A DNA stretch of 64,000 nucleotides from a virus: IMG/VR virus record IMGVR_UViG_3300024324_000002; one strand, 5' to 3'. Under the pieces are notes generated by a model that had not been told where the DNA came from, ran no database searches, and saw only the letters and a list, made by a program, of their open reading frames with translations. The position numbers were made by a program, and so were the translations under genes. This document shows positions 1 through 64,000 of this stretch, one piece after another. Every line of letters begins with the position of its first letter. The stretch's first letter is position 1.

Positions 1-786
1 ATCAACTCATGTTGCTCATGCGGCTCCAGTAGGTCATTGTATTCAATCTTCTCATTGTATTCATTGTGCTCATGTTGCTCAATCATTTCAATCAACTCAT
101 GTTGCTCATGCGGCTCCAGTAGGTCATGTAGCACCAGTAGCTCATGTAGGTCATACTGCTCATTGTATACCAGTAGCTCATGTAATACCTTGTATACCTT
201 GTATTCATTGTGGTCATGTAATTCAATCAGCTCATGCTATTGACATGTCTGTAATATATGTCCGAGCGCTATTTTTATATAAATATAATCTACCATAATC
301 TGAATCAGATTGATCTAATGTTCCAGCTACTAAACCAAAGTTTCATTCTGCTATAGATGATGATTGTAATTCAGATACTGAATTATAAATTCATGCTATA
401 TTAAATCATTGTCATTCATCTCATTGTACTCATTGTACTCATTGTATACCTTGTACTCATGCTGTACCAGTAGCTCATGTAGCACCAGTAGCTCATGTAG
501 GTCATACTCATCATGTATTTCAGTCAGCTCATGTTAATCATTGTGCTCATGTTGCTCAATCTATTCATTGAGGTCATACTGCTCATTGTGCTCATTGAGG
601 TCATGTTGGTCATGTTATAATACTCATTGAATCCATAATCTTTTGACTAGACCATAATGTATCATCACTAGCTTCAGCATTATCATTAAAATTAGCAAAC
701 TTACTATTGTCTGTATTAGATAACCCTTTAGCAGCTATTGTGCTTGAAGACATTAAATCCATAAATGTCTTAGTTCCTCATGCCAT
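1..786 (-). CDS. Collagen-like fibre protein, first 262 codons (runs off the left edge; in-phase continuation at 63861-64000)
   Basis: ATG at 786. Sequence MAGGTKTF...DDTLWSSQKI, then two G-X-Y tracts (about 420-600 and 1-235) split by a ~50-aa linker. The Gly position is TGA, GGT or GGA interchangeably. No TAA/TAG down to nt 1. Confidence 0.8.
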
Positions 787-872
787 AATATTTTAATTAT
801 GAAAATAAAATAATTTAGTTTTTAATTTTAGTTTTTAAAAAGTTTTAGTTTTTGGTTTGTTAAAATCTTTGC

Positions 873-901
873 GAGAGAAGGTAAACTAAAAAACTTCTCT
901 C
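873..901 (-). terminator. Hairpin after the fibre gene stop at 973
   Basis: GAGAGAAG / CTTCTCTC 8-bp inverted repeat with a 13-nt loop in the 187-nt intergenic gap. The T-tract is weak. Confidence 0.35.
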
Positions 902-972
902 TTAGATTTTGGAAATGTTTTTTAAGCGTGTGTTTTATTTCTGCTAGGGATATACATTTAAACCCTTAATGA

Positions 973-2574
973 TTAATAGTATTCTCAACCATCTACTGAT
1001 ATATCATCTAAGGCATCTTGTACATTATCTGCTGTCATTCATGATGCTGTATTATCATAACTTATCTGACTAGCATTTTTTACTATAGTATTTATTGGTA
1101 AATCAAATGATGTCCTTATTGGACTAGCTCATCCGAATTGAAAATTATAATATGATCATGGATTACCTAACATGTTAGCATAGTATTTAATTACTATCCT
1201 ATCTGATGCAGCCCAGTCTCAATCATTTAATAATGCTGATGCACTAAATTGATAATAACTATCATCTTGTGGATTTACAGCTCATGTAGTAGCACTTGTA
1301 GCTACTAATGTTTCTGTAGTATCTATGTTTCTTTTATATACTTCAAAATAAAACTCTGCATATTGTTGACTGTTACCAGCTATCTTAGCTATGTTTCATA
1401 TTGTAGGTATATTTAATGTTCCTATGTTTCATATAAATAATCATGGCTCTGATATTAATCAAGCTAGTAATTGATTATTTCATAATATCTCTCATGTTGG
1501 TATATCTATCGCTGGATCATCAAAGTTTGTATCTAGTAAATCTGATACCATTATATTATATCAGAAATCTCAACTAGCTGTTGTAGGATATAATATTATA
1601 TTATTATATAACAATCCTTTACTTGCTAGTAAATCCCAGTATGTATTTGCTGTAGGTATATTACCTATTGAATCAGTAGTACATATATATGAACTTCATT
1701 CATATGTAACTCAATCATTTACTAGATAACTAGTACCTACATTATACGGTCATCTCCGATTAATTCAAATTTCTCAATCTACTCAATCAACTCAATTTGT
1801 ACCATCTATTCAGTTGGTTCAATCTGTACCATCTGTACCATTAATTCAATCAATTCAGTTTGTACCGTTAGTTCAATTTGTACCATCTATTCAGTTGGTT
1901 CAATCTGTACCGTTAGTTCCATTAGTTCAATCTGTTCAATTAGTTCAATCTGTACCATCTGCTCATGGTAATCATTGTGGTCATTGTATACCTTCTCATC
2001 AAGTAATTCATCTACCAACCCATAATCTGTATTGTCTTATATTAGTTATATCTCAATTTAATTCTACATCTATCTCTGCTAATAAATATTTAGTTAGATC
2101 TTCTGTAGTAGTAGCTATAATAACTCCATCTATTAAATAAATATAATTCGTATAGTTCGCAGCTAGTAATCATTCACTATCATAATCTATGATATCTATT
2201 ACTGATCAATCCTCATATATCTTTCATCCAGTAATAATAACATTCTGTTCTGATTTCTTATATATATGAAAAGCTTGATTAATAAAATCACTAAAATAAT
2301 TTAATGCATCTATAGCATTAGTTAATAATACTTGTGATGAAGCTGTATGTAATACTGGATTAGTTCTGTTTACTCAATAAAAGAAAACACTATTACCTAC
2401 CTTTTTATGGTAGAATATGTTTTCTTCTTTTCATGGTATACCTTTATCTATTAATAAGAATCATATATCACTATCTGGTGAGTCATTAAGAAATACCTCT
2501 ACTTCTCATGTAGAGGTATTTTCTAAATCTTCTATCAAATATGTTATATAATCTTTTTGAAATCTTATACTCAT
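973..2574 (-). CDS. Tail fibre protein with central collagen-like repeat (533 aa)
   Basis: ATG 2574, TAA 973. (G-T-D/N)n triplets at about 1775-2010 with TGA/GGT/GGA at Gly. Then RGPYNVGTSYLVNDGVTYEGSSY...YWDLLASKG, a module common in phage fibres. C-terminus TADNVQDALDDISVDGGEYY. Confidence 0.85.
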
Positions 2575-2581
2575 GTTTTAA

Positions 2582-5689: not shown

Positions 5690-8596
5690 TTAATTAGATG
5701 TTAAAATATCATTCACATAAGGTTTACTTGCTTTAGTTAATAAGTAAGTGTTACCTATAATAAATCTGTTTTCAGATTTATATTGGAATCTCATGAACCT
5801 TCATGCTCTTTCGATTTGAGTTTGTATACTTGCTATATTTCACTCATATACTTCTTGAATCTCTTGTCATGGTAATTCATCAAGGTCTGGTTCTGGATCC
5901 AACATAGTATCAAAATAATAATTATTTAATGTATGTGTCTCTGTTTCTAAGTTACCAGCTTCCTCCTCTCTCTCTATTATTAGAGTAATATCTAAGTTGT
6001 CTTGATGGTTCAACCCAAATATTGTTCTCATTATATCAACCTTAGTAAGATTAATCAAATTTCAGATACTGAAGTTAATTTCTTGTGAGTACTCTACTCA
6101 AAAATCTGTATATCAATTCTCTATAGCTATATAATCTTTTGTTAATATTTCATCTCATATATGATATACTGGTGTATTATATTCATTCTGTAACCATATA
6201 TTTCTTGATATATCAAATTGATAGTTTGTAGTCTTCTCTCAATTTATAACTAGTACATTTATATATTCTCATTCTTGACTCATGAAACATTCTCATTCAG
6301 CTTCTTCAAATAAATATCTAAATCATTTTGATATCTCTTGTGTAGCTATTCTAGATTCAGTAGCATCATTCTCTACTACCTGTAATGTCATTAATCTTTT
6401 ATCTGATTGTAATAGATATAAAACTCCATCTGTATATAAATATGAATACTTACTAAATAGATCTCAATTAAATTCTAAGTCTTTCATTAAGTATGATGTC
6501 ATATCTCTTCCATATCTTTTCATTATAGTCTTCTTAATTAATTTATTTGTTTCTCAAATAACTATTAATGAATGTCCAAATGGTATTAATTTTTCTCATC
6601 CTTTATATGTAAGATTATCTAATGGATAGAATTGTGTATTACTATCAAAATCAACTCTACTAAAATATATAAAGTTAGGTGTTAATGTAAATAATGCTCA
6701 TTCAAATTCTTGTATATCTATTATATCTGTATTCTGTTTATTATTAATCTCTGTTCCTTTTAATACATTATATGGAAATATAGTATTATCATTCACATTT
6801 CTTATTGTTGATAATGGATTATATATAAATGCATCTGCTGGTATAGCTCAAGTTAATCCTACTCCATAATAATAATTACTTCATTCTATATTAAAGTTAT
6901 TTTCACTAACTGTTATTTTAGAATATGTAGTTGATGGATTTAATTGTCTTCAATCTATATGTGATATATCTAAATAATATGCATCTCAACCAGAATGAAA
7001 TATTTTATAAGCACTAAAGTCAGTATGGGTATTAAAGTAATTTATTATCTCTGTTGCTATAGTTCACTCATGTTGTGTATCTACATATATACTATGATCT
7101 ATTCCATCTACATTAATAACTATTGTTGCAGGACTTGTAACCCATGATGTATTAATATATACTTTCATTGAATATGTATCACTTCTAGTTACAGCATTTT
7201 CTTGTAAATCATCTTTCCGTATATAAAAATCATATCATAAAAACCATTCTTTTATTGTTATTCATAATGTATCTAGTGTAGATATATATTTATCTTCTGT
7301 TTCTACCATCTTATAACTATATCATACTGGTAGATTATCTCTTATATATTTATAGAAATCCATCTTTCTAAAACTATCTTGATTTTGAATTCAATCATCA
7401 TCATATCTATTTAATAAGTATGGTGTTGATCATCATAATGTAGATGAATTATACGCTATTATAGTTCAATCAAAATTAATTCATATACTAGGATATATTC
7501 ATAAACCAGCTCATGAAAAATTTATATCTAATTTTAATATAGAATCTAGTTGTGTAATTGCTATTGCTCATCAATCTACTCTATATATAAATAATAATAA
7601 ATTATCTATTTCTACTACATAATCAGATGATAAAACTCATTCCAATATATTTTTATTCTCTACATCATCTTCTCAATTTAATAATACTTTTACTCAATCT
7701 ATATCTAATGGATATAAATTAATGTATCAATATGTTAATGCTATATGATAATAAAAATCTCAAGCTCATTTAATATCTGTTAATGCTAATACATTAATTC
7801 ATGTATCAGATCATAATACTAATACATCTTTAGGATCACTGAATACATAATATTTTTCATCTGTCTCTGGTAATGAACCATAACCATCAGTACCAAATAT
7901 ATATACTTGTTCTCATACAGCATAATATATCCTCTTAGTTAATCATTTTAATATACCTGTTGTAAATGTAATATATCTTGTTGATCATTCACTCCGTCAA
8001 TGTCATGGGATAATTAATCCTATTAATCATCATTGATAATATGGTTGTAATTCTATTACATCAGCTCATTCTTCTGCTGTAGCCCAATAAGCAATATTAG
8101 TTGGTGAAATTCATGTAGCATCTTTAATACATATATATGCATTACTTCAACTTGTAACTCAATCTCATATCGAATATGAAGCGGTTGATTCATATACACT
8201 TGGATTTAATACTTTAGCTACAGGTTCTAAATTATTAATTGTCTCTGTAGCATCTATAATTATTTGTCATCATGCTCATGCTCACTTAATTAAGTGTGTA
8301 GGATTTCATTCTCTAATATCTTCAGAATATATTTCTTCATAATTTTTATTATATATTTTACCTTTAGTTTCAGTTTCACCATAGTAATATCTATCACCAT
8401 CTATATCTACATAATCTTTAAATGTAACTCATGGTAAATTAAATCTAGATTCTAATCATAATCTTTTATCTAACATAAAACTATCTCACGAGATTCAATT
8501 AATCTTGTGAGTTGGTTTAATAGCTTTACAGTTTATGATTCTATCATAAATAGAATTGAGTTCTTGATCTTTTAACTCTAATTGTATGTCTTTCAT
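5690..8596 (-). CDS. Large tail/nozzle-like structural protein (968 aa)
   Basis: ATG 8596 overlaps the upstream stop (TAATG); TAA 5690. Contains a fibre-type module SYSIGDGVTSGSNAYICIKDATGISPTNIAYW. Position after the capsid and adaptor resembles T7 gp12. Confidence 0.55.
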
Positions 8597-9290: not shown

Positions 9291-10631
9291 TTACGCTTCA
9301 AGATCTTCTAAAATCATGTAAGCATTATCATATGATTGACCAGCAAATACATTAGCTAGTTTGTATTCAAATGTATATTCTCTGAAATCATTAGTAGTAA
9401 CTGGTTGTTTAATAACACAAAATCTATTTGCTTGTGTTTTAACAGCTACACCTTGTTCATTCATGAATTCATTTTCTGGAACTCTGAACCCTACTAATTC
9501 TTTAGGGAATACGAATGCTTTAGAATCATTACTATATATTCTATCCATTTCTGGTAGAACGATAAAGTTAATATTTCTGAAGTATGGAGTAGATAAACTT
9601 TCTAATCCGTATTCAATAGTCTTAGGTATGAAGTTTTGGTAAACTACATCACTTCTTAATAGACCAGATATAACTGAAGCGAATTCAGTATTACAGAATA
9701 CAGTTGGTTTTTCATTACCAGTATAAACAGGAGCTGTAGAAGCTAAGTTTAATATTCTTTGTAGTTCTCTTAATTTAGTTTGATCAGTAGTCATAGCAGC
9801 TAAACTGAATCTAGAAGTTTGACCTCTAGCTTCTCTCTCATCTATAAGAGTAACATACCCTTGTAGTTCTGGAGAGTTACCACCATTGTTTTGTCCGAAG
9901 AACCAAGAACTAATTATGTTCTCTAAAATTTGCATTTTAGGTTTATTAAATTCATTTGATAAAAATGTTTTAACATCAACTAGTAATCTTGTTTTATTTA
10001 ATTCTTCAGCTTGTATAGATACTGAACCACCAAATTTTTGGAAGTAAGTAGTAACTAATTTAGCTGTAGGATCAGATACAGTTCTTTGAACTTTATCACC
10101 TAAAGTTAATTTAGGAGCGATGAAAATAACTTTATCACCATCTTTAACACTAACTGCAGAACTAACTGTAAGTGTGTTAGTAGCTGGATCTATACCTGTA
10201 ATTGTAACTTGTGTTTCAGTACCAGCAGATCCTTTAGCAGGAATTGTTCTAACGTAATCGTTAATTGCAAATGTACCTACTGATTCTACTATAATTTCTG
10301 TAGTAATTGAATCAGTTGTAATTTCAGATGAAGTTGAAAATGAATCACCTTCATACCAAGATACTGATGTACCAGTTTCTGATACAGTAGATTCTATTTT
10401 ACTAATTTTAGCAAATTGAGAATCTTGCATTCCTTCTAATTGAAACATTGCACCTGCACTAGATCCATTAATATTTCTTTGCATTCTATACCAGTTAGAT
10501 GGTCAGAACCCTAAGTAAGCGAAACCTGGATACTCTCTTATGTAAGAAGTCATAAAACCTATACCCTTACCTATAACTCTATCTACTATGTCCTGTGTAT
10601 TTACAGGAGTAGTATTTACTGCATTTGCCAT
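9291..10631 (-). CDS. Major capsid protein, putative (446 aa)
   Basis: Canonical position (TerL-portal-scaffold-this gene) with a strong terminator after it. Track ORF 9291..10484 extends upstream through a single TGA to ATG 10631. No family motif recognised by eye. Confidence 0.65.
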
Positions 10632-11511: not shown

Positions 11512-13353
11512 TTAAATTCACATACCTTGTAATTGTGCCATTAGATCCTCTGGATTACCTCATTCTTGTGGTGGTCACATAGGTGCTTCTGATGGTGGTC
11601 ACATAGGTGTCTCTGGAGTTTGTTCGTCTTGATTACTAAAGTCTAATCCTTTAAATCTATTTATATCAAAGTCATCATCTAATAGTATATTAAATAACTC
11701 ATTGATTTGTTCTGGTTTCATTTGTTTCATCTGTATCAATGATTGGAATATTTCTTTAACAATTCATCTCTTCTTTTCTTTCTCTATATTTCTTAATGAG
11801 TTAAATTTAAAACTTATATTCTCATCATTTATAATATCTGATATTAACATTTCATTAACAAGAATTCATCATTCTTCATCTGCACTAAATTCTAATCATA
11901 ATTTATTTAATTCTTTCTCTGTAAAGTATTTCAAATACATTAACATCCATGTCTTACTTACTCTACCCATCATCATCTGTATACTATCTATAATAGGAGT
12001 AAGTTTAGATTTATATTGATCATGTATTAGATTAATAGAATCTGATACTCTCTCTACTTTACTTTGTCATCCTAATAGATAACCATTTACTCATGCCCTC
12101 TTCTCTGTCATCTGTTCTACATATTGCCCTACATTCAATGGACTAAAATCATTTAATCCAAAATCTAATCTTTCTATCTTAGAGTCTGGACTCATTTTAA
12201 TACCTTTGAATTTTTCAAATCTTACTTTACCATCTCTACCTAATCATGGTACATTACCATATATAGCAAACATACCAGACATTTGCATCTTAATGTTATC
12301 TAAGAATGCATTCCATATTCATGTAAGTATAGATTGTAAATGTGATAAATTATCAACCTGACCGTTAGATGTTCATGCTCATGGTACATCATTAAATGAT
12401 ATCCCTCTAACTAAACTTAAATCTCATTCTAGTAATGGATCTCACATATATAATAAATTACCATCTATGTATATGTATAGTTTCTCATTGTATGCCACTT
12501 CTACTATTTCATAACTCTTACTACCCTTAACTAAATAGAAATTGTTTTGATCTATATCTGATACTTCATCTCATCATCTTATTCTTACATCAGTATTGAT
12601 TGGTTTCTTATTATTGTGTGAACCAACTATTAAGTTACTGTAATTGTTTATATTCTTCACTGGATTGTAATCGTAATTACTAAATCTAGTTTTACTTCTT
12701 TCAGTAGATTTTAATATCTTATTTATATGTGCCTTAACTTTAGCATCTGTTATATCACTAGATCTAAATAATCCACTATATTTATCATGGATATATTTAC
12801 CAGTATTAAATACTCTAGTTATTTGATATGGTGATTTTAATATACCATACGATGTATCATAGAATAAATTAAATATACTTAAGTATTCTATAGTAGGTTT
12901 CTTTGTCTTAACTTCTATTTTCTTTTTTCAACTTAGTATAGTATAATTTTCTGTTCTTTTAAATAACCCTGTCTTTACAAAACCTTCTCAACATATTAAA
13001 CATTCTTTTAAAGCATCTTTTAATGATGATCTTCATTGACTATTATAATCAAATGTTTTGTTACATATCTCTCTGAATGTAGGTTCTTGTACTCCGAATA
13101 CGAAATCAAAATCAAATAAGTTAGCAAACTCTGTATCTATAATAGATGCAGCATGTGGATAACTTATATTAGTTTGCCATTCTTGTAACTCTGGTAATCT
13201 ATCTAATACATATCATAAATATTGTTTATAATTAGATACGTACTTTGGGAACTTCTCGTCCTCAAATTTTTGTATAGTAAATGTAACTAAGTCAGTTACC
13301 TCCTCTATTTCTTTACTTTGCTTTTTATCAAAAGCTATTTTTATATCACTCAT
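11512..13353 (-). CDS. Portal protein, putative (613 aa)
   Basis: The ATG directly abuts the TerL TAG stop. Size and position fit a portal. Translated without TAA/TAG. Confidence 0.65.
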
Positions 13354-15498
13354 CTAGTATGTGTTTAAAGAATAATTAAAATGTGGTACATAATTATCAG
13401 GATTATACTCATGTACTTCTTGTTTATCAAATTCCACTCAATAGTCTTCTAATTCTTTTCTATCTCTAAGCCCTAATATTGTTACTACATAAAACATACA
13501 CATCATTAATCCATCAACTAAATCATCATGCATACTTCATTTACCTTGATATTTAGCTATCGTACTTTTAGTTCATGTTAGTTTAACAAAATTCTTCACT
13601 TGATTTATTAAATTAGTTTGATCTGATGCTATTTGTAATATACCTTTATCTAATAATAACTGTGTAGTTTCTACTAAATGTTGCTTACTAGATACATAAA
13701 ATCATTTCTTATTCCAACTCCATGTTCCATTACCTGTAAATTGTACCCAGTAATCTATTACATGTTCATGTTTCTGATCTTCCTGCATTATAACCTTACC
13801 TATTGTTGTAGCATCTCATATAACTGTTACATTTGTAAACCTATCTTTATATATCTTAGCTTCTTTTACTTGGTCTAAATAATGTATTCCCTTCATCTCT
13901 ACTGATTCTTGTATGATATGTTTAGTTATATTGAATAAAACTAATGATCATGGATCAGCATTACCTCAAAAATCTACTCATAATATATAATAATCATCTT
14001 GTGGTATCACTATAGGTGGTACTACATTACCTATAACATTAAATACTTGCATCTCATCTAGTATAACACAGTATGCTCTAGCATAATATTCTTTTAATCA
14101 TGCTTTCTTTAAGTCGTTTATAGTAAATTCCATCATCTTATTTAACTGATTCTCCATTTCTTCTACATCTATCTGGTTATTCTCATCTATATTTCTCTTA
14201 TAATTCAATTCAAATAACTCTCTCTTCTGTAATATATCTACTCTGTGACTAGTTATTAGTTCATCTCATAGTTCTCAATCTATTAATAGTCTATAAAACC
14301 AATGTTCTCTTGGTGTCTTCTCTGATATAGTTGTAATGATAAACATAGATTCTGTTTCCATTAATGCTCTTTGACTGAATAATGTCCAGAATTCATCTGG
14401 TATATACGCAGCTTCATCTATTACAGCGAAATCACAGGCTAATCATTCCCCTGTGGCTCATGAACCTCCAAAGTTATATAATGATACCATTCTAAATGTA
14501 GTACCTGTTAGATTACATTTAATAGTATACTTACTAGCTTGTATCTCTATTATAGGTTTACCGTCTGGTAACTTCTTTCATATAAAGTCTGATAAGAATC
14601 ATTCCATATAATCCATTACAGATGAACCTACATTACTTAAGTCTGGTACAAAATATTTAATCTGTCTAATCTTTCTTCATCCAAATCATGTTCACTCTTT
14701 AAATAACTCTCTTGCACTTAAGAATGCTCATAAGAATGATTTACCAGATCATTTACTTGCTGCTACTACATTAATCTTGTCCCAATCCATTATAATCTTT
14801 CTACTCCATTGTAGTAATGTATAGTTAGAAGCCTTTCTTAGTGAATGTCAATATGTTAGTTCTCTATTTGGATCTCATATATCATGATTAATATATCATT
14901 GTTTTAGTTCTGCTGTTAATACTTCTTCTAAACTTATCTCTCATTCTCATTCTATACTCATTGCTCCATAATTCTCTTGTCCTCTTTCTCATATTTTATA
15001 TGATGAACTCTTGTTCTTAACTATCTTCTCTTGTATAAATCATATGTATCATGTGTTTTTATTATATCATAATGGTACACTTCTTAATAACGGTGCTACA
15101 ATTAAATAATATTTATCTGATAAGTATCATGTCTTAACTAATTCTTTAATATAGTATTGTAATATAGTATGTGCTTTTATATCTATAATGTTTTTAGTTC
15201 TAACTAATTTAGGTAATGATATTTTAATATGATTATCCCCAAAGAATTCAGATAACAATCATGTTACATGTAATTCTACTGGGAAAAAATATTTAATACC
15301 ATACTTACTTCAATATTGTTTATCTAATACTCTCTTATCTCCATCAGCTATATTAGTTCATTCCTTATACATTAATTCTCTAGATGCTATTATTTCATCT
15401 ATATCTCATTTAAATGCTCATAAGAATCTTTTTATTGCTTCAAAAAAATCTTTGTCTCATATAAATCAATTATATTTAATATCTTTTAATGTGATCAT
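13354..15498 (-). CDS. terL: Terminase large subunit (714 aa)
   Basis: Walker A AASKGSGKS (14737-14760, first Gly = TGA). Walker B CDFAVIDEAAY. Nuclease-type motifs ILGVDFGGNADP and MHDDLVDG. Confidence 0.9.
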
Positions 15499-31456: not shown

Positions 31457-31467
31457 TTAATATATAC

Positions 31468-35909: not shown

Positions 35910-35934
35910 CCATAAAATTTTTAGTAGTTGTGTG
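35910..35934 (-). promoter_or_regulatory. Conserved 25-nt motif, copy 1
   Basis: Plus-strand CCATAAAATTTTTAGTAGTTGTGTG. Lies 79 nt upstream of the ATG at 35830. GCCGTAGGC mini-hairpin at 35941-35949. Confidence 0.5.
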
Positions 35935-35955
35935 TTGATTGCCGTAGGCTTCTTT

Positions 35956-35988
35956 AAAAAAAAGAGTACCTACTTATTAGCAGGTACT
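35956..35988 (-). terminator. Terminator after the 94-aa gene
   Basis: AGTACCT/AGGTACT stem followed by an 8-nt T-run on the coding strand. Confidence 0.6.
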
Positions 35989-42629: not shown

Positions 42630-43022
42630 TTAAACTTTTTCTTGTTCATAAATCATTTTATTATTCTTAGTAAATAGTACTGTCTTATATAATTCAGATA
42701 CTCTCTTAATAGTTTGTGGTGACATCTTATCTAATGTCCTTCACTTATCTCCTTCTTTATATCTAGTCTTAACTCATCTAGCTATTAAGTTTTCTTTAAC
42801 TACTAACTCATAGTTCTCTTTGTTTCTTTCTCTAGCTAGATCTATACTAAACTCACTCATGAGTTTAGCACATCTATCTAGTCAGAACTGTTTACGATAA
42901 TCTGATGTTAACATTCTATGTGTCATTCTTAAATGTGATCATAATTTATTAAATGATTTATCACATAACTCACATATAACTTTTCATTCTGTATCGTATC
43001 TTACTGGTATATATTTATTCAT
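42630..43022 (-). CDS. Ros/MucR-family zinc-finger regulator (130 aa)
   Basis: ICELCDKSFNKLGSHLRMTHRMLTSDYRKQFGL is the CxxC..H..H finger followed by the YR..(W/F)GL signature. Confidence 0.7.
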
Positions 43023-44123: not shown

Positions 44124-44579
44124 TTATTTTAAGTTAAATAAATTAAGTATATCTCTATAAGCTGCTATCTTACCAGCTTCATATTCTTCATTGTTTGGTA
44201 ATGATACTATCTCATGATAGATATCATCTGCTTTACATTTATCTTCTTCACATAATCCTTTACCTAATACTTCTATTCCATTTCTATTATGCAATAAGTA
44301 TTCATAACAATCTTCTATCTCTGATTCTAAATACTTAGCTACTTCTTTATCTGTATCCTTTAATCATACTTCATATCATCTAGTATATCCTTGTTCCCGT
44401 AATTGATTCTCACGTTCTCCATCTGGATCTATCCTTTCTAAATCTGATTCGTATTCTTCTAATATTTCTTTATGTTCATCTTGTTCTTCTTGATCTGCTG
44501 TGTCATCTAATTCTCCACACCGTTCTTCAGCAAACTCTCTTGGTAGTTGCTCTTGATATTCCTTTAGTTTAATTATCAT
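44124..44579 (-). CDS. Hypothetical acidic protein (151 aa)
   Basis: Track ORF 44376..44579 continues through TGA to TAA 44124. Confidence 0.55.
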
Positions 44580-49855: not shown

Positions 49856-49987
49856 TTAAATAATAATTCAATCGTCCTCTAGTTCCTTTCTTAATCTATT
49901 GTACATTTCTATATTACCTTTCTTATATTCTTGTATAGCTCTATTTGCTTTCCCTTCTATTGCTGCTCCTATCATTACGTTAGCCAT
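49856..49987 (-). CDS. Hypothetical protein (43 aa)
   Basis: ATG 49987, TAA 49856. Confidence 0.35.
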
Positions 49988-50585
49988 CTTTGTTTTTATT
50001 AAATAGTAATATTGTTTCTTTATATTCTAATAGTTCTAGCCATATATCTGTGTAGTATTTTAAATTCTCTACCTCTATAAATTCAAACTTCTTCTTATTC
50101 ATATATAATATGTATCAGTTGTTTAGTCATGACAACCGACAATATGCTGCTATCTGAATTTTATATTTCTCATTTTTTCTTATAGATGTTTTGTAATCTA
50201 CTACTCATAAATTTGTTATAGCATCTATTGTACCTCTAATTCATTCTTTGTAAAATGTCTTCTCTTTATCTACTATAGTAATACTATATAATAATTTCCA
50301 TTCTCTGAATCTCTTGTAATAATCTTTATGTTTATAATCTATCTTTTCCTTATCTAACATCTCATGTACTGCATGTCATCTATCACATGCTTCTTGTAAC
50401 TTCTCTCAATGATTCTGTTTAATGTATGTGAATGATGGATCTTCTATGATAGATAATAATTCTGTTACTGATATATCATCAGTTCCATATCTACCATAGA
50501 CTAGATCTATTCATAACTCATATCCATTATCTGAACAAAACTTTTTTAATTGTCCAAAGTTATTTGTTCCATTCTTATTAATCAT
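49980..50585 (-). CDS. PD-(D/E)xK nuclease, Cas4/RecB-like (201 aa)
   Basis: ...CDRGHAVHEML...GIRGTIDAITNLGVVDYKTS...QIAAY... Confidence 0.7.
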
Positions 50586-56799: not shown

Positions 56800-58548
56800 C
56801 TACGCTTTAACGTAATCAACGTATACAACATCACCAGTTTCTAATGCGTCAGTAAAACTAATTACACCAGCAACATTACTATAGAATTCAGTTCTAAGAC
56901 CATTTAAGTATACACCTTTAATTGAAGCAGGAGTATTAGTTAATGATACATCAGTAGATGCGTCAGTAACAGTAGGAGCTTCAGCGTAAACTTCTTTAGC
57001 AGTTTCAGCGTCTGTATAATCTTTAGCGTCTTGTAAATTTTTAGCCATTGATCCAGCACCAGAACCGTTAATAGTTGCTATAGCAATAGTGTTAGTATCA
57101 CAGTTTCCGTCAACTTCATTAATTGCACCAACTACAGTTACTTTGTGAGCAGTAGTTAATGTAGTTAAATCACCAGTAGCTCCAGAAGCGTTATTAGCAA
57201 CTTCATTAATAGCAGCAACTAAAGTATTTTTAGCTGTAGTAGTTAATGAACTTAATGCACCAGTGTTAGTTTCAAGAGTAGTTACTCTAGCTGTAACAGC
57301 ACCTATCGCAGTTTCGATTTCACCCATTGTATCCATAGCTGTAGAAACAGTACCTTTAAGTTCGTTTTTAGCAGCAGTGATATCATTAGCAACAGTAGTA
57401 ACGAAATTTTCATCATCACCAATAGCAGCAGCTAATTCATTAAGTGTATCTAATAATCATGGCGCACCATTAATTAAAGCAGAAACTTTAGTATCTGTAT
57501 ATGATTGAGCGTCAGTTAAGTTTTGAGCCATTGATCCAGCACCACTACCATTAATAGTAGTAATAGCTGATTCAGCAGTATCAACTCTTCCTTCAACTTC
57601 GTCTATAGCAGCTTGAACGTCAGTAGCATCTAAACCACTAGTAGTGTTAGTATAACTAATTTCATTAGCAGCATTTTGAGCATTAAGACCAGCAGTTAAA
57701 TCAGAAGCTAATTTATTTAAGTCAGCTTTAACAGTACCTTGACCTACATTAGATGTAGAAGTAGCGTTTTCAGCAGAATCTTTAATAGATTTAGCAACAG
57801 ATCCAGCAACAGTATCAGCACCGTTTAATGTATCTATAGAAGAATCAACAGTATTGAAAGCGTCTTTTACTGTAGCACCAGATACATCTGATGAATTAGA
57901 AGCGTTTTCAGCATTATCTTTAATAGATTTAAGAACTGAACCAGCAACAGAAACTGTATCATTTAAAGTAGTAATAGCTGATTCAGCTGAATCAACTCTA
58001 CCTTCAACTTCATCAATAGCAGCTTGTACATCATTAGCAGCTAATCCACTTGTAGTGTTAGCATAACTTGTAGTACTTGCAGTTTCAGCTTTTTCAGTGT
58101 TGTCAACTTTATCAAGATCAGCTGCAGTTGGTACTCCAGTAACAGCTTTATTGAATATGATCATATCACCAGCGTCATAAGAAACTCCTAACATTGTACC
58201 TCAAACAGATACTTTATAGAAGTCACCTTGCCCACCATTTGCAATATCATTTTCACTTTGTGTAGAAAGATCTAAAGATCCTTTATATTCTAACCCTGAA
58301 GATAGGTTAGCTATTTCTTGATCAACGTAACTTTTGTTAGCTGCATCAGTATTAGCTACTGGTGTTGCTACAGAAGATACTAATTGACCACCCATGTTTA
58401 ATACTCCAGTCATTGCAACTGAACCATCTCTTAGAATAAGATCAGCACCTTGTGCTAATTTAGCTAAAGCTATTGTTGAGTTAGCTATCTCATTATTCGT
58501 AATAGAACCAGCTTTTATTTGTCTATTACCATCAATTTTTATTCCCAT
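56800..58548 (-). CDS. Tail fibre protein (582 aa)
   Basis: Three track ORFs lie in one frame joined by two TGA codons. GDFYKVSVGG...GDMIIFN; NDVQAAIDEVEGRVD occurs twice; INGAPGLLDTLNELAAAIGDDENF is a classic long-tail-fibre motif. Confidence 0.85.
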
Positions 58549-60771: not shown

Positions 60772-61683
60772 TTAAATGTTATTATCTTCATATTTATCAG
60801 ATACATTCGCCATTACTATAAGTAAAAATTTATTTATAATATTAGCCTTCTTTTGTTTAAATAATTCTTCTGTTATATTTTCTTTAGTATCTTTTAATAC
60901 TTCATCTATCTGTTCTAATAATTCTCAAAATCTCATTTGATGAGATGCCCAGAATTTTTCTATTATCTTTATGTCTTTTCATGATGAGAATATTGCTTTC
61001 TCTAGATCTTGTCATATAGATTTAAATAATAAATTTATATGTATTTTGAACATCCTTGTGTTCGTAGTATTAAAACTATCTATATCTAAAATTATTCTTT
61101 TTAAAAATATAATTTTAGTTTTAAATAAATCTTTCATATCTGTATTTGGTATATGTTCTATATATCTATCCAGTTGTTCAAGATTATTTGTATACTCTTT
61201 TGTAAATTTATACCCAGTGATTCATGTTATTTTTTCTTTTAAAAATTGATTCTTATGTACTGATAGAAATTCTACTAGTACTGGATGTATCTCCATTCAT
61301 AATTCCTCAAGGTTTTCAGCTATACTAGATAAGTTATTTAATATTAGAAATCATGCAAATGCTCATACGAACATCTCTACATGAAATACTAAGTTCATTG
61401 TATATCACATAAACAGTAATATACTATAACTTACTAATTTCCATATTCATTTATAAAAACCTCTACTACTAAATACTTTATATTTAATAGCTTTTAAAGA
61501 TCATAATAATGTATCAACTAGAAATAACATAAATACAGCGTTTACTATGGTTTCGTTTCATACATAAACTAAGTTCATGTAACTTAATCCAATACCAAGT
61601 ACAGCTTTAGTTATGAAGTTATCTGTGAGTATAACTTTTAGATATACTAATATAGTTTTAATTCAGAATACTTCATTTAACAT
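60772..61683 (-). CDS. Holin-domain protein with long cytoplasmic extension (303 aa)
   Basis: Frame verified from ATG 61683 to TAA 60772. ...FLVDTLLGSLKAIKYKVFSSRGFYKGIWK...FLILNNLSSIAENLEELG matches my memory of the Phage_holin_4 signature (D..tG...S..G..K ... NE.lSIlEN). Confidence 0.55.
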
Positions 61684-62234: not shown

Positions 62235-62264
62235 AATTTTTTTATTATTAAAAATTAAATATGT

Positions 62265-62282
62265 GGAGAGAATTAACTCTCC
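62265..62282 (-). terminator. Hairpin after the fibre gene
   Basis: GGAGAG-N6-CTCTCC followed by an AT/T-rich stretch. Confidence 0.4.
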
Positions 62283-62370
62283 TTATATTATATAACTAGA
62301 TATACAATTTCTTCTTACATTTCTGTATTAATTATTTCAGTATACCTATTATCTATTAAGTTATTAAAAC

Positions 62371-63843
62371 TTATTTAATAAGTAATTCATTTGCTGTAAT
62401 AGCTATACCAGCTTTTACTGAATTATCTCAAGGATTTACACTTATAGCTCATATTCAAGAATGAGTATTAGTTCAAGAAATTACAAAATACATATCATAA
62501 CTACCAAAAGATGCTCTTGCTTTATGGAATACTCAATTAGAATATGAACCAGTAGAATCTCAATAAATTCTTCTTGTTTTACTTCAATCACTCATAGTGA
62601 ATTCAATATAATAAGTTCAAGTATTTAATAATAAATTACTAAATCAATAGTTTATATCTTGATCAGAAAAGTTTCATGTATATGTATTATCTGATGTTTT
62701 AATTAATGTTCATCCTACTGAATCATAAACTTTACAAGTAACTACAACTCAATGATAAAACATACCTCTTATTTTTATATTAGATATATTTATAGCTTCT
62801 GTTACAGTAAATGTTTGTCAATATGATTCATTTTGAAATCAATCTCAAATTACTTCATGTTGATCTGTATGCTGTATATTTAAAGAACCTGCAGCTTGTG
62901 ATATATAATAATTACTACCTATACTTAATCCTGTATTATTACTATTTATTCATACTAAATCAATTTGTATATTACCTCAAACAGTAACTGTTTCAGTAGC
63001 AAAACCTACAAATCAAGATTTATTTAAATCTGAAGAGTCAGTTAAGTATACTTTTCAATCTGTAGAATTTATATATATTGATTGTCCAGCTGTTATATTT
63101 CCTCAAGCAATTAATGAAGTTGTAATATTTCATCCTCCAACATTATTAATTGCATTATCTACCTCTGTTTTAGTATAAGTAGTAGCTTGATTAGCTTTAG
63201 TATTAACTAATGCAGTTAATGTTGTATCATCATATGTAGCACCATCAGCACCAGCAATACCTTGTGGTCATTGTGGTCAGATTAAACCTCCATTAATATC
63301 AGCAGCTAGTGTAGCAACTACATCAGCTAATTGATCTAATGTTGTAGCGTTAGCATCATAACTTCTTTGAGTTAATGCATTAGCTACTGTATATGTAGGT
63401 AATACAGATACATCAGCAGCAGTAGCTTTAGAATCTAAAGCAGCTTGTAATCCAGCTATACTAGCTATACTTAAAGCATCTAGATCACTTCTATTTAATT
63501 TAATAAAATCTACAATTTCTTGTACTTCATTTAAATCTACATCATTAGAAGCAACTAAAGTATTTAGATTATCTATTAATCCTTTTAATACTTTACCTTG
63601 TTCAGCTGATAATACAGATCCACTACCACCAGTTGTAACATCATCAACTACATGAGATGTATTTAATGCACTTAATACATGAGTATCAAATACACTTTTT
63701 GTATTTAATTGAAATGAACTAGTGTCAGTTTTTTTAATAAAAACTTTTTCATCTATTTCATTTATAAATATTTCACCAGCTTTTCTTTCTGCTGGCATCG
63801 TAAGTCCAGAAGTTAACCCTCTAGGATTTTGTAAATTTCACAT
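62371..63843 (-). CDS. Tail fibre protein with short collagen-like segment (490 aa)
   Basis: Frame verified line by line. ATG 63843 (MGNLQNPRGLTSGLTMPAERKAGEIFINE). GPQGPQGIAGADG at about 63235-63279, in which TGA encodes Gly. TAA 62371. Confidence 0.85.
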
Positions 63844-63860
63844 ATTTTATATGAATTAAA

Positions 63861-64000
63861 AATTAAAGATTAATAATATTCTCAACCGTCCATAATAAAG
63901 TTTCAATCTATTCAAACTCAATCAGCTCATGTTTCCCCTTGTATTCATTGTATTCATTGTATTCATTGTGCTCATGTTGCTCAATCATTTCAATCAACTC
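63861..64000 (-). CDS. 3' end of a collagen-like fibre gene (partial; matches the phase of the gene at 1-786)
   Basis: ...GNDGATGAQGIQGIQGIQGETGADGVGIDGNFIMDGGEYYYNL, with the TAA stop at 63861-63863. Confidence 0.75.

What the first reader, a model, noticed from the sequence alone, without database searches (positions are those of the whole stretch)
1..64000. TGA is a glycine codon (genetic code 25): a phage of a Gracilibacteria/Absconditabacteria-type host
In the standard code the minus strand has no ORF of 60 aa or more across, for example, 10485-15841 or 20021-23731. Reading TGA as sense yields a gap-free gene array. The positions of TGA are diagnostic. (i) It alternates with GGT/GGA at the Gly position of dozens of collagen G-X-Y triplets (1-600, about 1775-2010, 63235-63279, 63861-64000). 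(ii) The HU signature G-F-G-T-F is TGA-TTC-TGA-ACT-TTT (31316-31330). (iii) RecA GGGIP and YGNPNQTTGG contain TGA at Gly. (iv) So do the TerL Walker A SKGSGKS (14737-14760), (v) subtilase DHG and PGTSFAAP, (vi) TOPRIM VEGATD, and (vii) MucR FGL. TGG is still used for Trp (652-654 in TLWSS). Every gene ends in TAA or TAG. Code 25 is known only from Gracilibacteria and Absconditabacteria (SR1), so the host assignment is an inference from that.
Basis: partly seen in the sequence, partly recalled or inferred. Interest (0 to 1): 0.9.

Follow-up and report, generated by a model that had tools for sequence, protein, structure and literature searches.

The report
Phage with TGA-glycine, CGG-tryptophan code
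The window is the complete 64-kb genome of a tailed phage that reads the stop codon TGA as glycine, a known habit of phages of Absconditabacteria-type bacteria, and it also seems to read the arginine codon CGG as tryptophan, which I found reported for no phage in the literature I could search.

Summary
In the standard code the window is almost ORF-free. With TGA read as sense, 61 of 61 genes form a dense array that ends in TAA or TAG.

TGA means glycine, not tryptophan:
- GGN alone gives 2.95% Gly; with TGA it is 7.2%.
- 69 of 92 collagen Gly-position codons are TGA.
- Pfam scores for RecA+HU+subtilase are best with G (262.6 bits; A 231.1; W worst of ten, 205.3).
- No standard-code homologue has Trp at a TGA column.

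It is a phage. It has TerL, an HK97-fold capsid protein, a holin, a lysozyme and tail fibres. An identical contig joins the window's end to its start, so the window holds the whole circular or circularly permuted genome (63,992 bp). That genome has no tRNA, so a host must supply the decoding.

Code-25 phages of Absconditabacteria are already published, so this is a new member of a known kind.

One refinement is new. The 12 CGG codons sit at Trp/aromatic positions and never at Arg/Lys positions. This matches the CGG→Trp change predicted for Absconditabacteria. More distant relatives use CGA and CGG as Arg. No direct host link was obtained.

The parts
1..64000 (-). Complete phage genome, circular or circularly permuted. 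The unique length is 63,992 bp; the window's last 8 bases repeat its first 8. All genes are on the minus strand except two HU genes. TGA is sense in 61 of 61 genes, and stops are only TAA or TAG.
   Evidence: L088 (ENA ERZ27237568, k141_251864, 64,132 nt) is 100% identical to the window and bridges its end to its start. No tRNA and no Rfam family.
1..786 (-). Collagen-like fibre gene, N-terminal 262 codons. The gene runs across the window junction and continues at 63861-64000. It is 302 aa in the identical contig.
   Evidence: G-X-Y runs at 7-234 and 412-612 have 40 TGA and 9 GGN at the Gly position. Gene call in L088 19846-20754.
63861..64000 (-). C-terminal end of the same collagen-like gene. 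G-X-Y run at 63918-63992.
973..2574 (-). Collagen-like tail fibre. It has a repeat domain shared with the tail fibres of standard-code phages. It contains CGG at 1756-1758.
   Evidence: Pfam Collagen hit and a weak CBM_5_12 hit. G-X-Y run at 1765-2010. The CGG site aligns to F or A in the repeat units of L027, L030-L033 and L041.
5690..8596 (-). 968-aa structural protein conserved in all relatives, function unknown. It contains CGG at 7994-7996 and 7217-7219.
   Evidence: Synteny. At these sites the relatives have TGG/TGG/TTT and TGG/TAT/TAT.
9291..10631 (-). Major capsid protein with the HK97 fold. It is strongly depleted of TGA (1 TGA against 29 GGN).
   Evidence: AlphaFold2 with a 25-sequence alignment gave pLDDT 72.7. 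The best Foldseek PDB hits are phage capsid proteins: VP1 5e-16, P1, phicrAss001, N4, HK97. TGA depletion, p = 1e-10, is seen in all relatives.
11512..13353 (-). Portal-like protein. This is inferred from its position between TerL and the scaffold/MCP genes, and from its size.
   Evidence: Conserved synteny in L001, L002, L004 and L089. There is no Pfam or PHROG hit, so this is an inference only.
13354..15498 (-). Terminase large subunit. Its Walker A motif is A-S-K-(TGA)-S-G-K-S at 14737-14760. The invariant Trp at 13747-13749 (TGG) is CGG in relatives L066 and L067.
   Evidence: phrog_2, E = 2.6e-13.
15809..29782 (-). Giant ORF of 4,657 aa with 207 TGA. It is conserved in relatives (4,621 aa in L002's contig). 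Around residue 2381 it carries an RNA-polymerase beta-prime-like motif, HPE..KLQADFDAD (GDNDGD in relatives). It contains CGG at 19451-19453 and 16556-16558.
   Evidence: No Pfam, PHROG or PDB sequence hit. hhalign places the motif on the beta-prime NADFDGD segment only weakly, E = 0.09.
31139..31770 (+). Two tandem HU-like DNA-binding protein genes (31139-31456 and 31468-31770). They are the only plus-strand genes. The G-F-G-T-F motif at 31316-31330 has TGA at both Gly positions.
   Evidence: Pfam Bac_DNA_binding scores 83.8 bits with G and 72.1 with W. All 3 TGA columns are G in solved HU structures.
32005..32421 (-). WDGH-domain protein. The family's W-D-G-H motif is written W-D-TGA-H here.
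   Evidence: PF25311, E = 4e-27. In 15 standard-code cellular homologues, G holds 8/15, 8/14 and 12/13 at the three conserved TGA columns, and W holds 0 of 62.
32698..33744 (-). RecA-like recombinase with 15 TGA.
   Evidence: PF00154 scores 130.2 bits with G, 115.7 with X and 109.2 with W. Against E. coli RecA, the 12 aligned TGA columns are G 7, A 2, N 1, P 1, Q 1, W 0.
34166..35976 (.). 1.8-kb stretch with no ORF. It is low-complexity, with A/C-rich and A/T-rich tracts on the minus strand. Function unknown.
   Evidence: No Rfam hit.
39494..39859 (-). Phage lysozyme (endolysin) with 8 TGA and CGG at 39797-39799.
   Evidence: PF00959 scores 47.0 bits with G at TGA and 26.7 with X. At the CGG site W is the best of 10 residues: 51.2 bits against R 47.0.
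40545..41702 (-). Subtilase (peptidase S8). TGA sits in the H-G and G-T-S catalytic motifs.
   Evidence: PF00082 scores 57.5 bits with G and 32.9 with W. Against subtilisin, 5 of 7 TGA columns are G.
42630..43022 (-). Ros/MucR-type zinc-finger regulator.
   Evidence: PF05443, E = 4e-6.
45566..47062 (-). SbcC-like coiled-coil ATPase.
   Evidence: phrog_77, E = 6e-10.
47066..48895 (-). Toprim primase fused to a DnaB-like helicase, with 31 TGA. Its Trp in SVMSWGFEKF is CGG in relative L069.
   Evidence: DnaB_C scores 71.9 bits with G and 51.2 with W; Toprim_2 scores 30.2 and 23.9.
49980..50585 (-). Cas4/PD-(D/E)XK-like nuclease, weakly assigned. It contains CGG at 50136-50138.
   Evidence: Sub-threshold PDDEXK_1 and Cas_Cas4 hits score 18.6 and 17.4 bits with W, against 15.4 and 14.7 with R. 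At that column the relatives have TGG, TGG, CGG and TAT.
56800..58548 (-). 582-aa fibre-like protein that is nearly free of TGA (2 TGA against 48 GGN). It shares a conserved fibre motif with 42 standard-code viral contigs.
   Evidence: p = 1e-16. Its GC3 of 0.105 is as low as the rest of the genome, so it is not a recent import.
60772..61683 (-). Holin.
   Evidence: PF05105 Phage_holin_4_1, E = 6e-12.
62371..63843 (-). Tail fibre protein with a short collagen run at 63241-63288.
   Evidence: PF22337 Phage_fiber_rpt. The N-terminal motif is shared with 15 viral contigs.
44397..44399 (-). One of the 12 CGG codons. The full list: 262-264, 1756-1758, 7217-7219, 7994-7996, 16556-16558, 19451-19453, 30035-30037, 39225-39227, 39797-39799, 44397-44399, 44520-44522 and 50136-50138. 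There is a single CGA at 37664-37666. CGG is inferred to be read as Trp.
   Evidence: Coordinates. Relative L072 has TGG at the 44397 site.

Best explanation
The window is the whole genome (63,992 bp unique, circular or circularly permuted) of a tailed dsDNA phage. Its genes are written in the code of its host.

Shown by sequence evidence:
- UGA is a sense codon meaning glycine. It is the commonest Gly codon (59% of Gly codons), as expected under A+T mutational pressure at 27% GC.
- UAA and UAG are the only stops.
- UGG is still Trp.

Shown comparatively on a small number of sites:
- The rare codon CGG sits where Trp or another aromatic residue is required. It is most likely read as Trp.

Inferred:
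- The phage encodes no tRNA. All 61 genes, including the replication and recombination genes that are presumably expressed early, contain UGA. So it can only be translated in a cell that already has a tRNA-Gly(UCA) and does not terminate at UGA.
- The only bacteria known to do this are the Absconditabacteria (SR1) and part of the Gracilibacteria. CGG->Trp has been predicted for the Absconditabacteria and for some Gracilibacteria. The most likely host is therefore an Absconditabacteria-type CPR bacterium.
- The two genes that avoid UGA, the major capsid protein and a fibre-like protein, are probably the most heavily translated. This suggests that UGA-Gly is decoded less efficiently than GGU/GGA.
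For: TGA is sense:
- ORF content rises from 6,065 to 26,859 aa, and all genes then end in TAA or TAG.

TGA is Gly:
- Gly content is 2.95% without TGA and 7.2% with it. Trp would be 4.85% under code 4.
- Of 92 collagen Gly-register codons, 69 are TGA.
- Against solved structures, TGA columns are G in RecA 7/12, HU 3/3 and subtilisin 5/7, and never W.
- In 15 standard-code WDGH homologues, G is the top residue at the 3 conserved TGA columns and W is 0 of 62.
- Summed Pfam bits for RecA+HU+S8: G 262.6, A 231.1, N 228.7, S 228.6, T 225.9, D 222.0, C 219.1, R 214.6, P 209.7, W 205.3.
- G also beats W for DnaB_C, Toprim_2, WDGH and RecA_C. For the lysozyme, G at the TGA sites scores 47.0 bits against 26.7 with X.
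- Between related phages, window TGA aligns to TGA 122 times, GGN 21 times and TGG 0 times. Window GGN aligns to TGA 61 times. The second module gives TGA 246 and GGN 45.

It is a phage:
- TerL phrog_2.
- HK97-fold MCP.
- Holin and fibre repeats, lysozyme.
- A syntenic IMG/VR relative.

The genome is complete and has no tRNA. No tRNA was found in 15 relative loci either.

CGG is Trp-like:
- At the 7 alignable window sites, partners are mostly aromatic at 5, other at 2, and mostly Arg/Lys at 0. The log2 likelihood ratio (Trp-like over Arg-like) is +23.3. The control codons score CGT -38.4 and AGG -147.4.
- Across the low-GC clade there are 20 columns: 11 aromatic, 0 Arg/Lys, +48.2.
- An invariant TerL Trp is CGG in two relatives.
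- At the lysozyme CGG site the Pfam profile prefers W above the other 9 residues tested.
- Six of the CGG codons are reproduced in an independent assembly that is 100% identical over window positions 1-20631.

Literature:
- UGA->Gly is known only in Absconditabacteria and Gracilibacteria, and CGA/CGG->Trp is predicted in Absconditabacteria (PMC8629427).
- Code-25 phages are linked to Absconditabacteria, with about 90% of their genes carrying TGA (bioRxiv 10.1101/2021.08.26.457843; PMC10746230).
- A relative's TerL-to-MCP contig is binned in an NCBI 'Patescibacteria group bacterium' MAG.
Against: - There is no direct host link. No CRISPR-spacer match could be sought. One scan of 185,579 species genomes with a TerL profile found no relative.
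- The MAG that holds a relative's contig is labelled only 'Patescibacteria group', and binning is weak evidence.
- The CGG inference rests on 8 of the 12 window sites. Two of those are non-aromatic (19451: H/Y/V/L) or mixed (16556: Y, Y, Y, R, R, T), and at the lysozyme site one relative has Asn.
- The single CGA codon is untested.
- All decoding claims rest on sequence alone. No peptide evidence exists.
- The portal assignment and the 'highly expressed' explanation for TGA avoidance are inferences.
Confidence: 0.85

Rival explanations
1. TGA encodes tryptophan (code 4). This would fit a phage of Mycoplasma or Spiroplasma, or one of the TGA-recoded gut phages.
For: Public gene callers translated every TerL relative this way, giving W at the TGA columns. 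Low GC (27%) is typical of code-4 lineages.
Against: - Trp would make up 4.85% of residues and Gly only 2.95%.
- W gives the worst Pfam score of the ten residues tested, 57 bits below G.
- No standard-code homologue has W at a TGA column.
- TGA occupies the collagen Gly register.
- Window TGA never aligns to TGG in the structural-module relative L001.
- The W in database proteins is a translation artefact. Those proteins show 5-9% W and 0-4% G.
Confidence: 0.01
2. The phage infects a standard-code host and switches the code itself during infection, with a phage-encoded suppressor tRNA. This is the mechanism proposed for TAG- and TGA-recoded gut phages.
For: Such phages are common in gut metagenomes, and only 35-40% of them have a detectable suppressor tRNA (bioRxiv 10.1101/2021.08.26.457843).
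Against: - The complete genome has no tRNA and no Rfam family.
- TGA is in 61 of 61 genes. These include RecA, the primase-helicase and HU, which are presumably made early, before any switch. In phages of standard-code hosts only 26-71% of genes are recoded.
- The second reassignment, CGG to Trp-like, is a sense-codon change. A suppressor tRNA cannot explain it.
Confidence: 0.03
3. The code is plain table 25. CGG is still arginine, and its placement at aromatic columns reflects chance or tolerated W/Y-to-R substitutions, since TGG to CGG is one transition.
For: - There are only 12 CGG codons.
- Two tested sites are not aromatic, and one has Arg in two relatives.
- More distant relatives (L063, L065, L068) clearly use CGG and CGA as Arg.
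- The Pfam differences at single sites are only 3-4 bits.
Against: - None of the 7 alignable window sites, and none of 20 columns in the low-GC clade, is mostly Arg/Lys. About 64% of AGA sites are (1,354 of 2,123).
- Only about 2.5% of AGA sites are mostly aromatic, against 5 of 7 here. The log2 likelihood ratios are +23.3 and +48.2, while CGT and AGG in the same genomes score strongly Arg-like.
- CGG replaces an invariant TerL Trp in two phages.
- It replaces conserved Trp in the primase and in the nuclease.
- The pattern matches an independent prediction for the presumed host clade (PMC8629427).
Confidence: 0.17
4. The sequence is not a free phage. It is a prophage or a chromosomal island of an Absconditabacteria or Gracilibacteria genome.
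For: Prophages in these bacteria are described and are dense in TGA (PMC10746230). A relative's fragment sits in a Patescibacteria MAG.
Against: - The sequence closes on itself, and an identical 64,132-nt contig is permuted differently.
- Several relatives are stand-alone contigs of about 58-67 kb.
- No cellular flanks, rRNA, tRNA or housekeeping genes were seen.
- No integrase appeared among the roughly 35 proteins scanned.
Confidence: 0.04

Closest known systems
[quoted passage not shown] 2023, mBio, PMC10746230)
   Same: TGA is reassigned to Gly. Nearly all genes carry in-frame TGA (about 90% reported; 100% here). The phage relies on the host's decoding. Almost no genes are called under code 11.
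   Different: - Those papers test only TGA, by coding density or terminase alignment. They do not report any sense-codon change.
- No member of this phage's family matched GenBank phage records.
- Here the genome is closed, and CGG appears to be reassigned as well.
Absconditabacteria genetic code as inferred by Codetta (Shulgina and Eddy 2021, eLife, PMC8629427): UGA->Gly plus CGA and CGG->Trp
   Same: - UGA is Gly.
- CGG is rare (6.5 per 10,000 codons here; under 7 per 10,000 reported) and sits at Trp positions.
- AGA is the dominant Arg codon.
- GC content is low.
   Different: That inference was made for bacterial genomes, not phages. CGA (1 codon here) cannot be tested. The host tRNAs are not visible from the phage.
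Phages that mirror a host's sense-codon reassignment: two baboon-gut phage assemblies predicted to read AGG as Met, like their Bacilli hosts (PMC8629427)
   Same: The phage genome follows a host sense-codon change without encoding the matching tRNA.
   Different: The codon, the amino acid and the host phylum all differ. In that case no stop codon is also reassigned.
Stop-codon-recoded phages of standard-code hosts (Lak, crAss-like and others; code 4 or code 15)
   Same: In-frame 'stop' codons, low GC, and gene callers that fragment or mistranslate the genes.
   Different: - In those phages TGA is Trp or TAG is Gln.
- Recoding is concentrated in late genes.
- They often carry suppressor tRNAs, release factors or tRNA synthetases.
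- None of these features is seen here.

Membership tests
NCBI genetic code 25 (Candidate Division SR1 and Gracilibacteria) | UGA is a sense codon; UAA and UAG are the only stops | tested here: met
   ORF content rises 4.4-fold. 61 of 61 genes carry TGA and end in TAA or TAG.
NCBI genetic code 25 (Candidate Division SR1 and Gracilibacteria) | UGA encodes glycine | tested here: met
   Composition, the collagen register, PDB alignments, standard-code homologues and the ten-residue Pfam substitution test.
NCBI genetic code 25 (Candidate Division SR1 and Gracilibacteria) | UGG remains tryptophan | tested here: met
   The 112 TGG codons align to TGG in relatives far more than to any other codon: 66 TGG, with the next commonest at 4 each. 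77% of TGG sites are mostly aromatic (326 of 423).
NCBI genetic code 25 (Candidate Division SR1 and Gracilibacteria) | All other codons are standard, including CGG = Arg | tested here: not met
   Window CGG sites have partners that are aromatic at 5, other at 2 and Arg/Lys at 0. The log2 likelihood ratio is +23.3 for Trp-like. The Pfam lysozyme profile prefers W at its CGG site. The number of sites is small, so this is a probable departure, not a proven one.
Absconditabacteria-type code (UGA->Gly, CGA/CGG->Trp; Codetta prediction) | CGG read as Trp | tested here: met
   The evidence is comparative only.
Absconditabacteria-type code (UGA->Gly, CGA/CGG->Trp; Codetta prediction) | CGA read as Trp | tested here: inconclusive
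   There is one CGA codon (37664-37666) and no alignable homologue. The low-GC relatives have 0-2 CGA codons each.
Absconditabacteria-type code (UGA->Gly, CGA/CGG->Trp; Codetta prediction) | tRNA-Gly(UCA) and Trp-type tRNA(CCG/UCG) present; release factor 2 absent | not testable with these tools
   These are host genes. The phage has no tRNA, and no host genome could be linked to it.
Tailed dsDNA phage (Caudoviricetes) | Terminase large subunit | tested here: met
   phrog_2, E = 2.6e-13.
Tailed dsDNA phage (Caudoviricetes) | HK97-fold major capsid protein | tested here: met
   The model has pLDDT 72.7. Foldseek's best hits are phage capsid proteins, with E from 5e-16 to 1e-6.
Tailed dsDNA phage (Caudoviricetes) | Portal protein | tested here: inconclusive
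   A 613-aa gene sits in the expected position and is conserved in relatives, but it has no profile hit.
Tailed dsDNA phage (Caudoviricetes) | Tail or fibre proteins and a lysis cassette | tested here: met
   Phage_fiber_rpt, holin and lysozyme. Fibre motifs are shared with 57 viral contigs.
Stop-codon-recoded phage of a standard-code host | Phage-encoded suppressor tRNA, release factor or tRNA synthetase | tested here: not met
   The complete genome has no tRNA. No such protein family appeared in the Pfam scans. Not every small ORF was scanned.
Stop-codon-recoded phage of a standard-code host | Recoded codon absent from early genes | tested here: not met
   RecA has 15 TGA, the primase-helicase 31 and HU 3. 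All 61 genes carry TGA.

The most novel reading that the evidence does not exclude
This phage and its close relatives carry two reassignments at once: stop UGA->Gly and sense CGG->Trp. More distant members of the same phage family keep CGA and CGG as Arg. If so, phage genomes give independent, cultivation-free confirmation of the still unverified CGG->Trp reassignment predicted for Absconditabacteria. CGN usage would then separate Absconditabacteria-type from Gracilibacteria-type hosts among 'code-25' phages. One phage family would also be shown to have followed its hosts across a sense-codon reassignment boundary. I found no report of this in the searchable literature.
Probability: 0.7. Interest if true: 0.65.

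Novelty: new member of a known kind. Interest (0 to 1): 0.5.

Why it matters
As written, the finding (a TGA=Gly phage of an SR1/Gracilibacteria-type host) repeats a published phenomenon. Three practical points follow from the re-analysis.

1. Public metagenome protein sets translate this whole phage family with TGA=Trp. About 4% of residues are therefore wrong, always at glycines. This weakens homology searches and structure prediction, and it can mislead anyone who infers the code from database alignments.

2. The CGG result suggests that even table 25 mistranslates these phages. It also offers phage-based support for a predicted sense-codon reassignment that has no experimental confirmation. 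It gives a cheap marker for splitting code-25 phages by host code.

3. The phage has a closed genome and no tRNA. Its capsid gene is identical on at least 24 contigs read, from 51 blocks of the contig index, so it is probably widespread. That makes it a good target for proteomics to read the code directly.

Tried and rejected
- DNA references containing TGA cannot be given to the protein tools. All proteins were therefore pasted with X, G or W at the TGA sites.
- MCP tblastn against GenBank phages: no match.
- TerL homologues in the big protein collection were unusable as independent evidence, because all are code-4 mistranslations of recoded relatives.
- Host search, part 1: the TerL-profile scan of GTDB species genomes found nothing.
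- Host search, part 2: the WDGH-protein scan found only scattered, standard-code bacteria. These served as controls for TGA columns, not for host assignment.
- Sample accessions (PRJEB17505, ERR2281804/5, ERZ930066, 3300033146, 3300027996) occur in no searchable paper.
- The primase-helicase as a single query in viral contigs found nothing.
- The two fibre proteins pulled in only unrelated standard-code phages.
- The primase-helicase had no PDB sequence match.
- Giant ORF: no Pfam, PHROG or PDB sequence hit, even with a 3-sequence profile. The RNA-polymerase reading stays a motif-level lead.
- Single-sequence AlphaFold of the MCP failed (pLDDT 33). The alignment-based run worked.
- Recent horizontal import as the cause of the TGA-poor genes was rejected. 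Their GC3 (0.13 and 0.11) is as low as the rest of the genome, and MCP depletion recurs in every relative.
- The CBM_5_12 hit in the 973-2574 fibre does not cover its CGG site, so it says nothing there.
- Alignments around the CGG at 262-264 were driven by collagen repeats and were discarded.

Full report
**1. The observation**

The window has 27.4% G+C and a strongly negative GC skew throughout.

Under the standard code, stop-to-stop ORFs of 100 aa or more add up to only 6,065 aa. Freeing TGA raises this to 26,859 aa, of which 18,188 are on the minus strand. Freeing TAG instead has little effect.

With TGA as sense, ATG..TAA/TAG ORFs on the minus strand cover 87% of the window in a tight array with one orientation. 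One of them is a 4,657-codon ORF at 15809-29782. Every quoted codon string is present at the stated coordinates. All 59 minus-strand ORFs of 60 aa or more, and both plus-strand HU genes, contain in-frame TGA.

**2. Which amino acid TGA encodes**

Composition. In 18,594 codons, TGA occurs 790 times (4.25%), GGN 548 times (2.95%) and TGG 112 times (0.60%). Adding TGA to Gly gives an ordinary 7.2%. Adding it to Trp would give 4.85% Trp and leave Gly far too low.

Collagen register. Five collagen-like runs have 92 Gly-register codons. Of these 69 are TGA and 23 are GGN, and only two TGA fall at X/Y positions.

Standard-code references (TGA entered as X):
- E. coli RecA: the 12 aligned TGA columns are G 7, A 2, N, P and Q 1 each.
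- HU structures: G, G, G.
- Subtilisins: G at 5 of 7, including the H-G and G-T-S catalytic motifs.
- 15 cellular WDGH-domain homologues from standard-code genomes: G is 8/15, 8/14 and 12/13 at the three conserved columns, and the W-D-G-H motif is written W-D-TGA-H.
- Trp never appears at any of these columns.

Substitution test. I put one residue at all 24 TGA sites of a RecA+S8+HU chimera and summed the Pfam bit scores for those three families:

| Residue | Bits |
|---|---|
| G | 262.6 |
| A | 231.1 |
| N | 228.7 |
| S | 228.6 |
| T | 225.9 |
| D | 222.0 |
| C | 219.1 |
| R | 214.6 |
| P | 209.7 |
| W | 205.3 |

G also beats W for DnaB_C (71.9 against 51.2), Toprim_2, WDGH and RecA_C. The lysozyme scores 47.0 bits with G at its TGA sites against 26.7 with X.

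Related phages. Against relative L001, window TGA aligns to TGA 122 times, GGN 21 times and TGG 0 times. Window GGN aligns more often to TGA (61) than to GGN (45). The replication module of other relatives repeats the pattern: TGA 246, GGN 45.

A trap. The 18 TerL relatives in the large public protein collection all carry W at these columns, with 5-9% Trp and 0-4% Gly in 17 of the 18. This shows how they were translated, not what the codon means.

**3. What the sequence is**

Phage hallmarks:
- A terminase large subunit (phrog_2, E = 2.6e-13).
- An HK97-fold capsid protein. AlphaFold2 with 25 homologues gave pLDDT 72.7. The best Foldseek hits are phage capsids: VP1, P1, phicrAss001, Sf14, N4 and HK97, with E from 5e-16 to 1e-6.
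- A holin and a tail-fibre-repeat protein.
- A phage lysozyme.
- Collagen-like fibres.
- Two fibre proteins whose conserved motifs recur in 57 viral contigs.

Other genes are RecA, a Toprim-DnaB primase-helicase, an SbcC-like ATPase, a subtilase, a MucR-type regulator, two HU genes, a WDGH protein and a weak Cas4-like nuclease. No integrase was seen among the proteins scanned.

An ENA contig of 64,132 nt (L088) is 100% identical to the window. It runs from the window's end straight into its start with an 8-nt overlap. The window is therefore the whole genome, circular or circularly permuted, with 63,992 unique bases. The collagen-like gene cut at both window ends is a single 302-codon gene.

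The identical capsid protein is on at least 24 contigs read, from 51 blocks of the contig index.

Relatives with the same gene order and the same TGA usage:
- An IMG/VR contig of 66,648 nt.
- Metagenome contigs of 58-67 kb.

**4. How it must work**

The complete genome has no tRNA (ARAGORN) and no Rfam family. None of 15 loci from relatives has a tRNA either.

Every gene needs UGA read as Gly, including RecA, the primase-helicase and HU, which are presumably made early. The decoding machinery must therefore pre-exist in the cell. It consists of a tRNA-Gly(UCA) and the absence of termination at UGA.

Known UGA->Gly organisms are the Absconditabacteria and most Gracilibacteria (PMC8629427). Phages with this code, with TGA in about 90% of genes and with predicted Absconditabacteria hosts, are already described (bioRxiv 10.1101/2021.08.26.457843; PMC10746230).

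The host assignment remains an inference. I could not search for CRISPR spacers. A TerL-profile scan of 185,579 species genomes found nothing. One circumstantial link exists. A 6.2-kb TerL-portal-scaffold-MCP fragment of a TGA-recoded relative is deposited in an NCBI MAG named 'Patescibacteria group bacterium' (GCA_049625205.1).

**5. A second reassignment**

Shulgina and Eddy predicted that Absconditabacteria also read CGA and CGG as Trp, and that some Gracilibacteria read CGG as Trp. I therefore examined the CGN codons.

The window has AGA 524, AGG 77, CGT 24, CGC 4, CGG 12 and CGA 1.

What aligns to the window's CGG sites:

| CGG site | Gene | Evidence at that position |
|---|---|---|
| 7994-7996 | 968-aa structural protein | relatives: TGG, TGG, TTT, GTA, ACA |
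| 7217-7219 | 968-aa structural protein | relatives: TGG, TAT, TAT |
| 16556-16558 | giant ORF | relatives: TAT x3, AGA x2, ACA |
| 19451-19453 | giant ORF | relatives: CAT, TAT, GTA, TTA |
| 50136-50138 | Cas4-like nuclease | relatives: TGG, TGG, CGG, TAT; Pfam W above R by 3.2 and 2.7 bits (sub-threshold hits) |
| 44397-44399 | acidic 151-aa protein | relative: TGG |
| 39797-39799 | lysozyme | relatives: CGG, AAC; Pfam best with W (51.2 bits; P 48.8, R 47.0) |
| 1756-1758 | collagen-like fibre | mostly F, otherwise A, in repeat units of standard-code phage fibres |

I classed each site by what most of its partners encode:
- Window CGG: 5 aromatic, 2 other, 0 Arg/Lys.
- AGA sites: 64% Arg/Lys and 2.5% aromatic.
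- TGG sites: 77% aromatic.
- The log2 likelihood ratio (Trp-like over Arg-like) is +23.3 for window CGG. For the control codons it is -38.4 (CGT) and -147.4 (AGG).
- Across the low-GC clade, 20 de-duplicated CGG columns give 11 aromatic, 9 other and 0 Arg/Lys, with a ratio of +48.2.

The clearest single case is a TerL column..IDYWVQF.., at window 13747-13749. It is TGG in eight phages and CGG in L066 and L067. The window's primase Trp is CGG in L069.

In contrast, the more distant and slightly GC-richer relatives L063, L065 and L068 use CGA 14-48 times, and they use CGA and CGG at Arg/Lys columns. Their ratios are -263.3 for CGA and -21.3 for CGG.

The family therefore seems to span two host codes, and the window belongs to the CGG = Trp side. 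Six of the window's CGG codons are reproduced in the independent identical assembly. Among the papers I could search, only the Codetta paper holds the terms CGG, tryptophan, Absconditabacteria and phage together.

The sample is small. One site is mixed and one is non-aromatic. I rate CGG = Trp at about 0.7-0.8.

**6. Other features**

TGA-poor genes:
- The capsid gene has 1 TGA against 29 GGN. The 56800-58548 fibre-like gene has 2 against 48. The genome-wide TGA share of Gly codons is 59% (p = 1e-10 and 1e-16).
- Capsid depletion recurs in every relative: a share of 0.03-0.30, against about 0.8 in neighbouring genes.
- The GC3 of both genes is as low as elsewhere. This looks like translational selection in heavily expressed genes, not recent import.

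Giant ORF:
- It has no detectable family.
- It carries a conserved RNPVPN..EN.GVYK ... HPE..KL(Q/K)(A/G)D(F/N)D(A/G)D block.
- This resembles the giant virion RNA polymerases of crAss-like phages. That comparison comes from my own knowledge and is untested here.

The stretch 34166-35976 has no ORF and is low-complexity.

**7. Verdict**

The phenomenon (a code-25 phage with a likely Absconditabacteria-type host) is already published, so as stated this is a new member of a known kind.

The added value lies in four points:
- The genome is closed and has no tRNA.
- Public translations of this phage family are systematically wrong.
- There is evidence for a second, sense-codon reassignment that the phage shares with its presumed host clade.
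- The capsid gene avoids the reassigned codon in every member of the family examined.

Noticed in passing
window 9291-10631 and 56800-58548; L001 9989-11332, L002 14848-16215, L004 14935-16278, L089 4486-5859: The major capsid gene and one fibre-like gene almost completely avoid TGA-Gly (1 of 30 and 2 of 50 Gly codons, against 59% genome-wide). The capsid gene does so in every relative. Their GC3 is as low as the rest of the genome, so this looks like selection against UGA-Gly in heavily translated genes.
   Followed up: partly
window 15809-29782 (motif near residue 2381, about 22630-22650): The 4,657-aa ORF is conserved in the family but has no Pfam, PHROG or PDB sequence match. It has a conserved HPE..KLQ(A/G)D(F/N)D(A/G)D block preceded by RNPVPN..EN.GVYK, which resembles the beta-prime catalytic loop. 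It may be a giant virion RNA polymerase, as in crAss-like phages. The only support is a weak hhalign match (E = 0.09).
   Followed up: partly
proteins P0001-P0018, P0019-P0033, P0048-P0073 (public metagenome protein collection): Relatives of this phage in the public collection appear to be translated with TGA = Trp. Among the 18 TerL relatives checked (P0001-P0018), 17 have 5-9% Trp and 0-4% Gly. About 4% of residues in such proteins are wrong, always at glycines. I did not check the composition of the primase and MCP relatives.
   Followed up: yes
L063 (JACCDZ011847603.1), L065 (Ga0154020_10003043), L068 (Ga0307935_1000041) versus window, L066, L067, L069-L072: The phage family splits by CGN usage. 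The distant, slightly GC-richer members use CGA (14-48 per locus) and CGG as ordinary Arg codons. The low-GC members almost lack CGA and place CGG at Trp or aromatic columns. This suggests hosts with two different codes.
   Followed up: yes
window 1-8 and 63993-64000; L088 20624-20631: The window wraps. Its last 8 bases repeat its first 8, and an identical 64,132-nt contig is permuted differently. So the window is a complete genome of 63,992 bp, and one collagen-like gene (302 aa) spans the junction.
   Followed up: yes
window 34166-35976: A 1.8-kb stretch has no ORF. It contains long A/C-rich microsatellite-like tracts (ACACAAC... on the minus strand, about 34740-35060) and A/T-rich tracts. 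It lies between RecA and the early-looking small genes, and it has no Rfam match. It may be an origin or a regulatory region.
   Followed up: no
window 31139-31770 (+): Two tandem HU-like genes are the only genes on the plus strand of an otherwise one-directional genome.
   Followed up: no
L089 = NCBI GCA_049625205.1, contig JBMZVA010000023.1: A TerL-portal-scaffold-MCP fragment of a TGA-recoded relative is deposited in a MAG labelled 'Patescibacteria group bacterium'. Only three genes are on record for it, one of them the TGA-poor capsid gene. This is a circumstantial link between the family and CPR bacteria.
   Followed up: partly
window 56800-58548 and 62371-63843; L005-L061: The two fibre proteins share short, highly conserved motifs (for example APGLLDTLNELAAAIGDDENF, and the Phage_fiber_rpt region) with tail fibres of many unrelated, standard-code phages of 23-64% GC. 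Fibre modules are thus shared across the code boundary.
   Followed up: partly
window 37664-37666: This is the single CGA codon in the genome (…STIKR[CGA]AEEIRK…). Its meaning could not be tested. Under the Codetta prediction it would also be Trp.
   Followed up: no
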